From IMG/VR virus record IMGVR_UViG_2681813004_000023: a DNA stretch of 7,566 nucleotides; one strand, written 5' to 3'. The translations under genes were made by a program, and so were the position numbers. The notes beneath the pieces were generated by a model. The model worked only from the letters and a program-made list of their open reading frames with translations, did no database searches and was not told where the DNA came from. Below are positions 577 to 1,430 of this stretch, piece after piece (within the stretch, counting starts at the first letter, position 1; every line of letters begins with the position of its first letter). The DNA comes from a virus. Its lineage: Duplodnaviria; Heunggongvirae; Uroviricota; Caudoviricetes.

Positions 577-664
577 CTCTCCTGTTATTTCGAGCAGGAG
601 GGTAACAATAGTTACATAGGAATGTCAACCATAGCAACATCACTTGGTAGTAACATTGGTTACA
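577..664. promoter_or_regulatory. Divergent promoter/operator region (oR-like) with two GGTAAC-N4-GTTACA palindromes (601-616, 649-664) and a leader hairpin (579-600)
   Basis: Seen directly: GGTAACAATAGTTACA at 601-616 and AGTAACATTGGTTACA at 649-664; the second overlaps the ATG at 661 of the repressor gene. Inverted repeat CTCCTG(579-584)/CAGGAG(595-600). Exact -35/-10 hexamers could not be assigned with confidence. Confidence 0.55.
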
Positions 665-1338
665 TGAAAAACACTATCAGCGAACGTATTCGGAATCGTC
701 GAAAAGACGTTGGATTAACCCAACAGCAGGTTGCGAAAGCAATCGGCATATCTCGTGTATCCGTAACAAAATGGGAAAATGGCTCTTCAAAACCTGACGG
801 TGAGAATTTGCATCTACTGTCAAAATTGCTTTCCAAATCTCCTGAATGGATTCTTTATGGAAAGGACGGTCACGATAAAACCGATGATCTGCGTCTGAAT
901 CAGTATCCTTACATTAGTGACAACATCGCCCGGTTGCCCGTTTTAACGTGGGAACAGGCTGGTTATTGGGATATGAGTTGTCCAGTAACCGAGATTCCTG
1001 GCATTAAGAATTGGGTTGATGTCATGACAAAAACCGCTGAAAACTCTTTTTTATTGCATGTTGAGGGAGATGCGATGACAAACTCTAACGGCCTCCCAAC
1101 CATCCCCGACGGATCTACCGTGCTGATCACACCATGCTCAAGTAACATTAGAGAACTGGTGGGAAAAATAATCTTAATCCAATTGGAAGGAACGCCAAAC
1201 GTAACACTAAAAAAAGTTGCGATTGACGGACCAAACATCTATCTGTTGTCACTGAATCCGCTTTACAAACCCATCGAACTGAATGGTGGTTACACCATTA
1301 AAGGTAAAGTTTCACAAATACATCAATACTTAGACTGA
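661..1338 (+). CDS. Phage cI/LexA-type repressor: N-terminal XRE-family HTH plus C-terminal S24 peptidase-like domain (225 aa from ATG 661; track ORF starts at 565)
   Basis: HTH segment LTQQQVAKAIGISRVSVTKWENG. C-terminal domain aligns by eye to lambda CI/LexA: VEGDAMT corresponds to lambda VEGNSMT and LexA GMSM; TLKKV corresponds to lambda FKKL and LexA VKRL. Start 661 is preferred over 565 because the 565 frame runs through the divergent operator/SD region and overlaps the cro-like start; there is no SD before 661, consistent with a leaderless pRM-type transcript. Confidence 0.8.
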   Translation, partial: YMKNTISERIRNRRKDVGLTQQQVAKAIGISRVSVTKWENGSSKPDGENLHLLSKLLSKSPEWILYGKDGHDKTDDLRLNQYPYISDNIARLPVLTWEQAGYWDMSCPVTEIPGIKNWVDVMTKTAENSFLLHVEGDAMTNSNGLPTIPDGSTVLITPCSSNIRELVGKIILIQLEGTPNVTLKKVAIDGPNIYLLSLNPLYKPIELNGGYTIKGKVSQIHQYLD

Positions 1339-1343
1339 GTCAG

Positions 1344-1368
1344 AACCCGCATTCATTGCGGGTTTTTC
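1344..1368 (+). terminator. Rho-independent terminator after the repressor gene
   Basis: AACCCGCA(1344-1351) - loop TTCAT - TGCGGGTT(1357-1364), then a T-run through 1367, immediately after the stop at 1336-1338. Confidence 0.6.
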
Positions 1369-1386
1369 ACGCTCTCAAATGTACCT

Positions 1387-1430
1387 TTTACAACATCGTA
1401 TTGACTCTAAAGGTAACTCTTGTTACCTCA
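1387..1430 (+). promoter_or_regulatory. oL/pL-like region: third copy of the operator palindrome, GGTAACTCTTGTTACC (1412-1427), with -35-like TTTACA (1387-1392) and TTGACT (1401-1406)
   Basis: Perfect 6+4+6 palindrome of the same family as the two sites at 601-664, located just after the cI terminator and upstream of the + strand gene series. No convincing -10 hexamer identified. Confidence 0.5.

What the first reader, a model, noticed from the sequence alone, without database searches (positions are those of the whole stretch)
601..1427. Three-site operator family GGTAAC-N4-GTTAC(A/C), two sites at oR and one at oL
Palindromes at 601-616, 649-664 and 1412-1427 share a 6+4+6 architecture and flank the repressor gene on both sides, matching the oR/oL logic of lambdoid immunity regions. 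This defines the likely immunity specificity of the prophage. The site at 649-664 overlaps the repressor's own start codon, which fits autoregulation of a leaderless pRM-type transcript.
Basis: seen in the sequence. Interest (0 to 1): 0.45.

Follow-up and report, generated by a model that had tools for sequence, protein, structure and literature searches.

The report
P22-type prophage operators, GTAAC half-site
The three palindromes are real and are almost certainly the binding sites through which this E. coli prophage's repressor and Cro proteins control its early promoters, so this is an ordinary phage P22/21-style immunity switch that reads a DNA word not yet characterised.

Summary
GTAAC-N4-GTTAC occurs exactly three times in the window (602-615, 650-663, 1413-1426), against none in 200 shuffles. 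The only slip is that base 649 is A, not G.

The sites flank a CI-type repressor gene (HTH + S24, true start ATG 664) that diverges from a P22-Cro-family gene. In about 28 related loci and phages with repressors only 42-90% identical, the same palindromes lie exactly 62 and 14 nt before the conserved ATG and 40-120 nt after the stop codon. The linkers between them are free to vary.

The layout copies phage P22/21:
- OR1 and OR3 centres are 48 bp apart.
- OR3 abuts the start codon.
- oL reads terminator, OL2, -35, OL1.

Half-site and recognition helix co-vary in both CI and Cro: K/R goes with GTAAC, G with GTAGG (mEp390), Q with TTAAG (P22/21). Mosaic breakpoints (366; 1442-1445) enclose exactly cro-oR-cI-oL.

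A leaderless cI transcript is plausible: there is a conserved TAACAT -10 and no Shine-Dalgarno sequence.

Verdict: a new member of a known kind. No binding data exist. Side finding: the repressor's catalytic Ser is Ala, so it is probably not SOS-cleavable.

The parts
357..572 (-). cro-like gene (71 aa), first gene of the rightward/lytic operon, followed by a ydaT-family gene.
   Evidence: Pfam P22_Cro, E 2.9e-16. PGAP annotates it as a Cro/CI family regulator, with a YdaT family gene downstream. Its helix ISHVAVVRWK parallels the CI helix.
599..628 (-). Predicted pR: -35 TTGACA (628-623), 18-nt spacer, extended -10 TGT (607-605) plus TACCCT (604-599). A cro leader of about 20 nt carries an AGGAG Shine-Dalgarno sequence at 583-579.
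   Evidence: Read from the sequence. The same geometry is seen in relatives (TTGCTA-17-TGT-TACCTT). It did not pass the strict consensus scan. Inferred.
601..616 (.). OR1: GGTAAC AATA GTTACA, overlapping the pR -10 and spacer.
   Evidence: Exact core match. Best weight-matrix score in the window, 24.3 bits. Conserved at -62 from the ATG in 24 of the 28 aligned loci; the other four carry one extra mismatch there (L009, L025, L033, ZF40). Unchanged in a 97% allele whose flanks differ.
624..639 (.). OR2, a weak, degenerate middle site: GTCAAC CATA GCAACA. Its centre is 23 bp from OR1 and 25 bp from OR3. Its left half doubles as the pR -35.
   Evidence: It is the positional homologue of GCAAAC AACA GTTACA in relatives, which scores 5-11 bits and ranks 5th in those loci, and of P22/21 OR2. 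In the window it scores only -4.8 bits, rank 31 of 7549. Occupancy is inferred to need cooperativity.
649..664 (.). OR3: AGTAAC ATTG GTTACA. It ends on the A of the cI start codon.
   Evidence: Exact core match, 19.2 bits. Found at -14 in all 28 loci compared. The exact OR3+ATG 19-mer occurs in at least 120 IMG/VR viral contigs. P22/21 OR3 likewise abuts the c2/cI ATG.
651..656 (+). Predicted pRM -10 hexamer TAACAT. The predicted transcription start is at 663-664, that is, at the A of AUG (leaderless).
   Evidence: The T at position 2 of the 4-nt spacer is kept in OR3 of every locus, while the spacers of the other operators vary. There is no Shine-Dalgarno sequence before ATG 664. Inferred, not mapped.
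664..1338 (+). cI repressor gene (224 aa): N-terminal HTH_3 with recognition helix SRVSVTKWE and a C-terminal S24 domain.
   Evidence: Pfam HTH_3 2e-16 and Peptidase_S24 9.5e-17. The conserved Met corresponds to ATG 664. Best PDB matches are lambda CI and the P22 C2 N-terminal domain. The S24 nucleophile Ser is replaced by Ala (codon GCG, 1072-1074).
1342..1368 (+). Intrinsic terminator of the cI transcript.
   Evidence: A 10-bp stem followed by a U run; -18 kcal/mol, z = -5.7 against shuffles. A hairpin plus T-run occupies the same place in relatives and in phage 21.
1380..1395 (.). OL2, a weak site: TGTACC TTTT ACAACA, 32 bp upstream of OL1.
   Evidence: Fourth-best weight-matrix hit in the window, 6.9 bits; 0.52 hits per shuffled window are expected at that threshold, so the score alone is not significant. 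It aligns with the OL2 sites of relatives, 32-35 bp upstream of OL1, and with phage 21 OL2. The 97% allele has G at 1390, closer to consensus.
1401..1429 (+). Predicted pL: -35 TTGACT (1401-1406), 17-nt spacer, TGT (1421-1423) plus -10 TACCTC (1424-1429). It would drive ydfA/B/C-like genes, DicF, dicB, the exonuclease gene, xis and int.
   Evidence: The layout TTGAC(A/C/T), 5-6 nt, then operator recurs in all relatives and in phage 21. Closest relatives have TACCTT at the -10. It failed the strict scan. Inferred.
1412..1427 (.). OL1: GGTAAC TCTT GTTACC, covering the pL spacer and -10.
   Evidence: Exact core match, 21.6 bits. Conserved position in relatives. No change in the 97% allele, although 10 substitutions fall within 1370-1434. 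It lies about 15 nt inside the right mosaic breakpoint at 1442-1445.

Best explanation
The three palindromes are operators of a P22/phage-21-type lambdoid immunity region. They belong to a Qin-like E. coli prophage integrated next to ynfA/rspB.

A dimer of the CI repressor (224 aa; recognition helix S-R-V-S-V-T-K-W-E) binds 18-bp sites of the form x-(G/A/T)GTAAC-N4-G(T/G)TAC(A/C)-x. Late in infection the P22-Cro-family protein (helix S-H-V-A-V-V-R-W-K) binds the same sites. Each helix-turn-helix reads one outer 6-bp half. The A/T-rich central 4 bp are not contacted, as in P22 C2.

- At oR, OR1 (601-616) overlaps the pR -10 and spacer. A degenerate OR2 (624-639) overlaps the pR -35. Together they shut off cro and ydaT.
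- OR3 (649-664) overlaps the -10 and start of pRM. CI at high concentration, or Cro, turns off cI there.
- pRM probably starts at the A of AUG 664, which gives a leaderless cI mRNA.
- At oL, OL1 (1412-1427) overlaps the pL -10, helped by a weak OL2 (1380-1395). This keeps the leftward operon silent: ydfA/B/C-like genes, DicF sRNA, dicB, exonuclease, xis and int.

What is shown: the motif, its non-chance occurrence, its positional conservation, the homology of layout with P22/21, the covariation with the recognition helices, and the mosaic boundaries.

What is inferred: actual binding, the affinity order, the promoter assignments, the leaderless start, and cooperativity at OR2 and OL2.
For: - Motif statistics: 3 exact matches, 0 expected. 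A weight matrix trained on distant relatives ranks the sites 1-3.
- Gene content: HTH_3+S24 repressor, P22_Cro gene, DicB, DUF1391, DUF1482, excisionase; DicF RNA; prophage context.
- Positional footprint: sites at -62 and -14 from the ATG and after the stop in 20 genomes, 5 closer relatives and the isolated phages AH07, ZF40 and 733R5. Column information is 1.86-1.92 bits in the half-sites and 0.37-0.95 bits in the linkers.
- P22/21 layout: annotated OR and OL sites in phage 21; 48 bp between OR1 and OR3; OR3 abutting the ATG; terminator, OL sites, TTGACC, then OL1.
- P22 repressor contacts operator positions 2-7 and 12-17 and not the central four (PMC4267663). This matches the 6+4+6 pattern here.
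- Covariation: mEp390 has helix NRVTVTGWE and operators GTAGG-N4-CCTAC in the same places. P22/21 has SNVAISQWE with TTAAG. The residue before the Trp is K/R, G or Q in both CI and Cro of each group.
- Mosaic breakpoints at 366 and 1442-1445.
- A 97% allele has no change in the three sites.
- Start codon: conserved Met at ATG 664.
- Leaderless repressor mRNAs have precedents in lambda cI, PaaR2 of CP-933P and PY54 cI (PMC8630535; PMC4488713).
Against: - There are no binding, footprint or transcription-start data for this repressor or any family member. Literature searches found none.
- pR, pL and pRM all fail a strict sigma-70 consensus scan, which found 0 sites. The -10 elements are weak: TACCCT, TACCTC and TAACAT.
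- The window's OR2 is not distinguishable from background by sequence alone (-4.8 bits). OL2 alone is at chance level for a 7.5-kb window.
- If transcription starts at ATG 664, OR2 is centred near -32. That position is unlike lambda's activating -42, so positive autoregulation cannot be assumed.
- Many of the 219-aa-type relatives are close to one another in oR. The number of independent lineages is nearer 6-8 than 28.
- PGAP annotates the repressor from ATG 622.
Confidence: 0.88

Rival explanations
1. The palindromes are operators, but oR works as a two-site switch in this prophage. OR2 has decayed into a pure pR -35 (TTGACA) and binds no repressor. OR1 and OR3 then act independently, or through pairwise contacts across 48 bp, and there is no P22/lambda-style cooperative OR1-OR2 pair.
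For: The window's OR2 scores -4.8 bits (rank 31 of 7549), whereas relatives score 5-11 bits. Throughout the E. coli/Salmonella clade the left half is GTCAAC, which is a consensus -35 on the other strand, and the right half drifts: GCAACA, ACAACA, GTGACA, GTAACA, GGTACG. 933W repressor is reported not to bind adjacent sites cooperatively (PMC3317979 abstract).
Against: The position and the AAC/AC(A) remnants are conserved in every lineage, and column information is 1.48 bits against 0.4-0.9 in the linkers. Part of that conservation could come from the -35. P22/21 and lambda OR2 sites are also intrinsically weak and are filled cooperatively (established knowledge). The Salmonella and 67% relatives keep a near-consensus right half.
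Confidence: 0.3
2. The repressor starts at ATG 622, as PGAP annotates (238 aa). On this reading 649-664 lies inside the coding sequence, and the maintenance promoter lies upstream, around OR1.
For: PGAP calls the CDS at window 622-1338. The upstream frame is open in all five members of the E. coli/Salmonella clade, and several database proteins carry the extension.
Against: - Most homologues are 215-221 aa and begin at the Met aligned with ATG 664.
- The extension diverges faster than the protein: 3-4 of 9 residues differ, against 10-12% overall.
- The constant C-terminal 'NIGY' of the extension is simply the operator read in frame.
- ATG 622 is part of ATGTCAA, the complement of the pR -35, so it is conserved for another reason.
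- The AGGA before it is not conserved.
- The P22 C2 protein starts at the equivalent of ATG 664 (PDB 1ADR sequence).
Confidence: 0.07
3. The three palindromes are chance or non-regulatory repeats, for example hairpin-forming DNA or recognition sites of another host or phage protein, and have nothing to do with CI or Cro.
For: No direct binding evidence exists. Short 5-bp arms occur often in A/T-rich intergenic DNA.
Against: Zero matches are expected by chance. Positions are fixed relative to the repressor start and stop across genera. The half-site changes together with the recognition helices of CI and Cro. The sites lie inside the swapped immunity cassette. The layout is identical to the experimentally defined P22/21 operators.
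Confidence: 0.02

Closest known systems
Immunity regions of Salmonella phage P22 (c2/cro) and coliphage 21 (cI/cro)
   Same: - The repressor is 36% identical over 95% of its length. Its N-terminal domain matches P22 C2 structures 1ADR, 2R1J and 3JXB.
- Cro belongs to Pfam P22_Cro.
- Operators are 18 bp, with 6 contacted, 4 uncontacted and 6 contacted positions (PMC4267663).
- OR1 and OR3 centres are 48 bp apart with a weaker middle site.
- OR3 abuts the start codon.
- oL consists of a terminator, an upstream OL site about 35 bp before OL1, a TTGAC -35, and OL1 over the -10.
- Positions 4-6 of the half-site (TAA) and the Val of the recognition helix are shared.
   Different: - The half-site is (G)GTAAC, not (T)TTAAG. 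It differs at operator positions 2, 3 and 7.
- The recognition helix is SRVSVTKWE, not SNVAISQWE.
- OR3 is 2 nt closer to the ATG (GTTAC-ATG against CTTAA-CT-ATG).
- Only two OL sites are recognisable in the window; phage 21 has three annotated.
- The S24 catalytic Ser is Ala here.
Phage lambda oR/oL with cI, cro and the leaderless pRM transcript
   Same: Divergent cI and cro genes around a tripartite oR with 23-25 bp site spacing. A second operator set at pL lies beyond the repressor gene. The repressor has an HTH domain and an S24 domain (lambda CI is the top full-length PDB match, E 4.6e-14). The repressor start codon lacks a Shine-Dalgarno sequence and follows a -10-like element directly.
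   Different: The operators are 17 bp with a different sequence. Lambda Cro has a different fold family. Lambda OR3 is centred near -20 and OR2 near -42 of pRM (established knowledge). Here the predicted centres are about -7.5 and -32, so OR2-mediated activation cannot simply be carried over. There is no rexAB between cI and oL.
DicA/DicC/dicB-operon control region of the K-12 Qin prophage
   Same: The chromosomal neighbourhood is the same, and the downstream operon is the same: ydfA/DUF1391, ydfC, DicF RNA, dicB and ydfD/DUF1482. In both, the repressor-proximal promoter controls the division inhibitor DicB and the sRNA DicF (established knowledge for K-12).
   Different: Here the regulator is a full-length CI with an S24 domain, and the immunity cassette (window 367-1441) is a different mosaic module.
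Uncharacterised relatives with the same operator word: Pectobacterium phage ZF40, Pantoea phage AH07, Escherichia phage vB_EcoS-733R5, and prophages of Yersinia, Klebsiella, Kosakonia, Buttiauxella and Edwardsiella
   Same: Identical operator core GTAAC-N4-G(T/G)TAC at identical positions. The recognition helix is S-R-V-(S/T)-(V/I)-T-K-W-E, invariant across the aligned homologues apart from two conservative changes in ZF40. OR3 abuts the ATG.
   Different: These repressors are only 42-53% identical overall and 219-222 aa long. Their OR2 is stronger (GCAAAC AACA GTTACA). The right half-site is often GGTAC. They keep the catalytic Ser. No operator study was found for any of them.

Membership tests
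Lambdoid immunity region (cI-oR-cro plus oL) | Divergently transcribed repressor and cro genes separated by a short operator/promoter region | tested here: met
   cro lies at 357-572 on the minus strand and cI at 664-1338 on the plus strand, 91 bp apart.
Lambdoid immunity region (cI-oR-cro plus oL) | Repeated dyad-symmetric sites in oR, and a second set beyond the repressor gene at the leftward promoter | tested here: met
   Strong sites at 601-616, 649-664 and 1412-1427. Weak positional homologues at 624-639 and 1380-1395.
Lambdoid immunity region (cI-oR-cro plus oL) | The cassette (cro, oR, cI, oL) is exchanged as one mosaic module between otherwise homologous phages | tested here: met
   Homology to Sakai Sp11 and phage Tritos stops at window 365/366 and resumes at 1442-1445. 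3766 of 5426 E. coli genomes match some part of the query, most of the sampled partial hits covering only the flanks, and 702 cover at least 80% of the region.
Lambdoid immunity region (cI-oR-cro plus oL) | The repressor and Cro physically bind the sites and repress pR and pL | not testable with these tools
   This needs EMSA or footprinting and reporter assays. No published data were found.
P22 C2 / phage 21 cI-type operators | 18-bp site: positions 2-7 and 12-17 are conserved and contacted, and the central 4 bp are variable and A/T-rich | tested here: met
   Family sites fit x(G)GTAAC-N4-G(T/G)TAC(A/C)x. The N4 is AATA, ATTG, TCTT, TAAA or AAAA. The P22R contact map comes from PMC4267663.
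P22 C2 / phage 21 cI-type operators | Site geometry: OR1 and OR3 centres 48 bp apart, OR3 adjacent to the repressor ATG, and an OL site about 35 bp upstream of OL1 with the -35 between them | tested here: met
   Phage 21 annotation and sequence, and P22 sequence, compared with the window centres of 608.5 and 656.5 and the OL spacing of 32 bp.
P22 C2 / phage 21 cI-type operators | Half-site sequence ATTTAAG (same immunity as P22/21) | tested here: not met
   The half-site here is (G)GTAAC and the recognition helix differs at 5 of 9 positions. The architecture is the same but the specificity differs, so heteroimmunity to P22/21 is inferred.
SOS-inducible LexA-like (S24) phage repressor | Ala-Gly cleavage site and a Ser/Lys catalytic dyad | tested here: not met
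   The QAG cleavage motif and the Lys of 'KKV' are present. The nucleophile Ser is Ala: GDAMT here, against GDSMT or GESMT in P22, phage 21 and most homologues, and aligned to lambda S149. Autocleavage is therefore doubtful.
Leaderless repressor mRNA (lambda cI, PaaR2, PY54 cI type) | The transcription start coincides with the A of the start codon | not testable with these tools
   Only indirect support: there is no Shine-Dalgarno sequence, and the conserved TAACAT ends 7 nt before ATG 664 in all 28 loci. Precedents are in PMC8630535 and PMC4488713.
LexA SOS box | CTGT-N8-ACAG dyad | tested here: not met
   The sites are GTAAC-N4-GTTAC with a 4-bp spacer. They are not SOS boxes.

The most novel reading that the evidence does not exclude
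The GTAAC operator word and its invariant recognition helix define one very broad immunity group that crosses genera. Repressors only about 42% identical, from phages and prophages of Escherichia, Klebsiella, Pectobacterium, Pantoea, Yersinia and others, would then cross-repress one another. Within that group, this E. coli/Salmonella lineage has fixed a naturally non-cleavable (Ser to Ala) repressor. The switch would thus have become a permanently locked, SOS-blind silencer of the dicB/DicF operon, that is, a domesticated host regulator and no longer a phage decision circuit.
Probability: 0.3. Interest if true: 0.45.

Novelty: new member of a known kind. Interest (0 to 1): 0.25.

Why it matters
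The result gives a testable operator set and a corrected repressor start codon (ATG 664) for an immunity cassette present in about 700 of 5426 complete E. coli genomes.

It also adds a third specificity to the P22/21 repressor and Cro family. Here the residue before the conserved Trp changes with the half-site in both proteins: K/R with GTAAC, G with GTAGG, Q with TTAAG. That is useful raw material for studies of how HTH specificity and phage immunity diversify.

The operators control pL, which drives the division inhibitor DicB and the sRNA DicF. Their state therefore decides whether these host-toxic functions are expressed.

None of this changes the textbook picture of lambdoid switches.

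Tried and rejected
- **Strict sigma-70 scan of 300-1700.** It found no promoter, and it did not report the cI terminator at 1342-1368. Promoters were therefore assigned by homology of layout. The terminator was confirmed by folding.
- **Relaxing the motif to 2 mismatches.** This gave only chance-level extra hits inside genes.
- **Weight-matrix scan for OR2.** The window's middle site is not significant on its own. It is kept only as a weak positional homologue.
- **Rfam.** The only match is DicF, with nothing in oR or oL.
- **Literature searches.** Searches for the motif, for ZF40 operators and for P22 pRM start-site data returned nothing specific to this family. The transcription start of P22 pRM could not be retrieved, so the leaderless claim rests on lambda, PaaR2 and PY54 precedents.
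- **Megablast against deposited phages.** No phage carries this exact cassette. Only the flanks match.
- **PGAP start ATG 622.** Considered and rejected; see the rival explanations.
- **LexA SOS-box reading.** Rejected because the spacer and sequence are wrong.
- **Whole-genome search for further sites.** Not possible with these tools. About 5 chance hits would be expected in 5 Mb in any case, since 10 bases are specified.
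Full report
**What the window is.** The 7566 bases are the left (early) arm of a Qin-like lambdoid prophage of E. coli. A 99.8%-identical copy lies next to rspB/rspA/ynfA in strain 22-245.

From left to right the window holds:
- the start of a ydaT-family gene and a P22-Cro-family gene (357-572), both on the minus strand;
- an HTH_3 + S24 repressor gene, ending at 1338;
- DUF1391 (ydfA-like) and ydfC-like genes;
- DicF RNA (2487-2538);
- dicB and a DUF1482 gene;
- a large 3'-5' exonuclease gene;
- an excisionase gene and an integrase gene.

About 702 of 5426 complete E. coli genomes carry at least 80% of the 300-1600 region.

**Check of the observation.**
- 601-616 reads GGTAAC AATA GTTACA.
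- 649-664 reads AGTAAC ATTG GTTACA. Its first base is A, not G.
- 1412-1427 reads GGTAAC TCTT GTTACC.

The shared core GTAAC-N4-GTTAC matches exactly three times in the window. No match occurred in any of 200 dinucleotide-preserving shuffles. Allowing two mismatches adds only chance-level hits inside genes. A symmetric weight matrix built only from sites of distant relatives ranks the three sites first to third (24.3, 21.6 and 19.2 bits; the next score is 6.9). No further strong site exists in 19.3 kb of the near-identical prophage copy.

**The repressor's start codon.** PGAP starts the repressor at ATG 622, giving 238 aa.
- An alignment of 20 homologues with 42-90% identity shows that the conserved Met is ATG 664. 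Most homologues are 215-221 aa.
- Where an upstream extension is called, its only conserved part is '...NIGY'. That is simply GTAAC ATT GGT TAC read in frame.
- ATG 622 is part of ATGTCAA, the complement of the pR -35.
- The AGGA in front of ATG 622 is not conserved.

**Phylogenetic footprint.** A genome scan returned 20 loci from other Enterobacterales, plus one Celerinatantimonas locus, with repressors 42-53% identical.
- Almost every one carries a GTAAC-N4-G(T/G)TAC site exactly 62 nt and exactly 14 nt before the conserved ATG. The two exceptions are shifted by an annotation offset.
- Each has one to three sites 40-120 nt after the stop codon.
- Five closer relatives show the same pattern: E. 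coli at 90% and 88%, Salmonella at 70%, a metagenomic contig at 67%, and Hamiltonella at 52%.
- So do the isolated temperate phages AH07 (Pantoea), ZF40 (Pectobacterium) and vB_EcoS-733R5 (E. coli).

The 28 oR regions align without gaps. Mean column information is 1.86-1.92 bits in the OR1 and OR3 half-sites. It falls to 0.37 bits in the OR2-OR3 linker and 0.47 bits upstream of OR1. The exact OR3+ATG 19-mer occurs in at least 120 IMG/VR viral contigs.

A caveat applies. Many of the 219-aa-type loci are close to one another, so the number of independent lineages is perhaps 6-8.

**Additional weak sites.** The alignment reveals a middle site.
- In relatives it reads GCAAAC AACA GTTACA, scores 5-11 bits and usually ranks fifth in the locus.
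- In the window it reads GTCAAC CATA GCAACA (624-639) and scores -4.8 bits, rank 31 of 7549.
- Its centre is 23 bp from OR1 and 25 bp from OR3.

At oL, the window's fourth-best weight-matrix hit (1380-1395, TGTACC TTTT ACAACA, 6.9 bits) aligns with the OL2 site that relatives carry 32-35 bp upstream of OL1. Neither site is significant alone. Both are positional homologues of real sites, and occupancy would need cooperativity (inference).

**Closest known system.** The repressor is 36% identical to P22 C2 and phage 21 cI. Its N-terminal domain matches the P22 C2 structures. The neighbouring gene belongs to Pfam P22_Cro.

Phage 21's annotated operators and the P22 sequence show the same plan:
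- three 18-bp OR sites, with OR1 and OR3 centres 48 bp apart;
- OR3 directly before the ATG (CTTAA-CT-ATG);
- at oL a terminator, OL3, OL2, TTGACC, then OL1.

P22 repressor contacts operator positions 2-7 and 12-17 and leaves the central four base pairs uncontacted. It prefers A/T in the centre (PMC4267663). This matches the 6+4+6 pattern and the A/T-rich spacers seen here.

Relative to the P22 half-site A-T-T-T-A-A-G, the new half-site x-G-G-T-A-A-C keeps T4-A5-A6 and differs at positions 2, 3 and 7. The helix keeps the Val that fits the TTAA methyl cleft in P22 (PMC2995052). It changes N to R, A to S, I to V, S to T and Q to K.

**Covariation.**
- Phage mEp390 (42% identity) has the same architecture, but its operators are GTAGG-N4-CCTAC and its CI helix is N-R-V-T-V-T-G-W-E.
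- The residue just before the conserved Trp tracks the half-site in both CI and Cro of each group. It is K in CI and R in Cro with GTAAC, G in both with GTAGG, and Q in both with TTAAG.

This is the strongest in-silico evidence that these proteins read these sites and that both proteins share them.

**Immunity cassette.** BLAST of the window against Sakai prophage Sp11 and phage Tritos, which have other immunity types, shows 88-97% identity up to window 365/366 and again from 1442-1445. Nothing matches in between. The exchanged module is therefore exactly cro, oR, cI, the terminator, OL2, pL and OL1. In a 97%-identical E. coli allele (L037) none of the three sites is changed, although 10 substitutions fall within 1370-1434 and four fall next to OR1.

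**Promoters (inferred).**
- pR: TTGACA (628-623, minus strand), 18 nt, TGT-TACCCT (607-599). OR1 covers the spacer and -10, and OR2 covers the -35.
- pL: TTGACT (1401-1406), 17 nt, TGT-TACCTC (1421-1429), with OL1 over the spacer and -10.
- Relatives have the same layout (TTGAC-N17-TACATT or TACCTT).
- All three promoters fail a strict consensus scan.
- pRM: TAACAT (651-656) lies inside OR3. Its final T, which is spacer position 2, is kept in OR3 of every locus, while the spacers of the other operators vary. The hexamer ends 7 nt before the A of ATG 664, and no Shine-Dalgarno sequence is present.
- Leaderless repressor mRNAs are documented for lambda cI, PaaR2 of CP-933P and PY54 cI (PMC8630535; PMC4488713).

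I put the leaderless or near-leaderless reading at about 0.65. With that start, OR2 would be centred near -32, not lambda's -42. Whether CI activates pRM is therefore open.

The cI transcript ends at a strong hairpin plus U-run (1342-1368; -18 kcal/mol, z = -5.7).

**Verdict.**
- The model system is P22/21, not lambda itself.
- There are five sites, not three, and two of them are weak.
- Base 649 is A.

This is a new, experimentally uncharacterised specificity within a very well known kind of switch. Interest is modest (0.25).

**Side observations.**
- The S24 nucleophile Ser is Ala in this repressor (GDAMT, codon GCG at 1072-1074). The same holds in a 97% E. coli allele, a 90% E. coli relative and a 70% Salmonella relative (GCA). 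The 88% and 67% relatives and all distant homologues keep Ser. The repressor is probably not RecA-cleavable, so the prophage and the dicB/DicF operon would be blind to the SOS response.
- The window's pL -10 ends in C (TACCTC) where close relatives have T. The 97% allele instead has a damaged -35 (TTAACC).
- The exonuclease gene carries a 274-nt tandem duplication that splits it. The near-identical copy in strain 22-245 has it intact.

Noticed in passing
window 1072-1074 (codon GCG within cI, motif GDAMT): The catalytic Ser of the S24 autoprotease domain is Ala in this repressor. The same is true in a 97% E. coli allele, a 90% E. coli relative and a 70% Salmonella relative (GCA). The 88% and 67% relatives, P22, phage 21 and all distant homologues have Ser. 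The Ala-Gly site and the Lys are intact. This suggests a naturally non-cleavable, SOS-noninducible repressor, which may have arisen or reverted more than once.
   Followed up: partly
window 3632-4191: A tandem duplication lies inside the large 3'-5' exonuclease gene. Segment 3632-3816 is repeated at 3906-4090 (99%), and 3817-3905 at 4103-4191 (83%). It splits the gene into ORFs 3182-3937 and 3690-5927. The 99.8%-similar prophage in strain 22-245 has one intact 2472-nt gene. The 83% segment suggests recombination between two alleles, not a simple slip.
   Followed up: partly
window 2487-2538 (+): A full-length DicF sRNA gene (Rfam RF00039, 76.7 bits) lies between the ydfC-like gene and dicB. 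The oL/pL operator described here would therefore control DicF and DicB, as DicA does in K-12 Qin.
   Followed up: partly
window 1429; L037 equivalents of 1403 and 1406: The predicted pL looks attenuated in different ways in different copies. The window has TACCTC where close relatives have TACCTT (the key last T of the -10 is lost). The 97% allele keeps TACCTT but has TTAACC in place of the TTGACT -35. This is possibly decay or down-tuning of pL in a cryptic prophage.
   Followed up: no
window 622-663: RefSeq/PGAP proteins WP_000103684.1 and WP_000103686.1 are annotated from ATG 622 (238 aa). The family alignment indicates that the true start is ATG 664 (224 aa). Phage 21's deposited cI CDS (OL657228) is conversely called too short: it is annotated from locus position 664, while the P22-type ATG is at 586.
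   Followed up: yes
window 1437-1530; same region in L003-L021: Downstream of OL1, the pL leader contains a block conserved across genera and immunity types (catcaacagcgaacaggcaggacgcccacgaagtagcc in relatives). Phage 21, by contrast, has its annotated boxA-L/nutL there. The block may be an antitermination or processing signal of the leftward transcript.
   Followed up: no
L038 (phage mEp390) oR/oL: mEp390 uses operators GTAGG-N4-CCTAC (and GTAAG-N4-CCTAC at oL) in the same P22-like layout, with OR3 abutting its ATG. As far as the searches showed, this operator set is also undescribed.
   Followed up: partly
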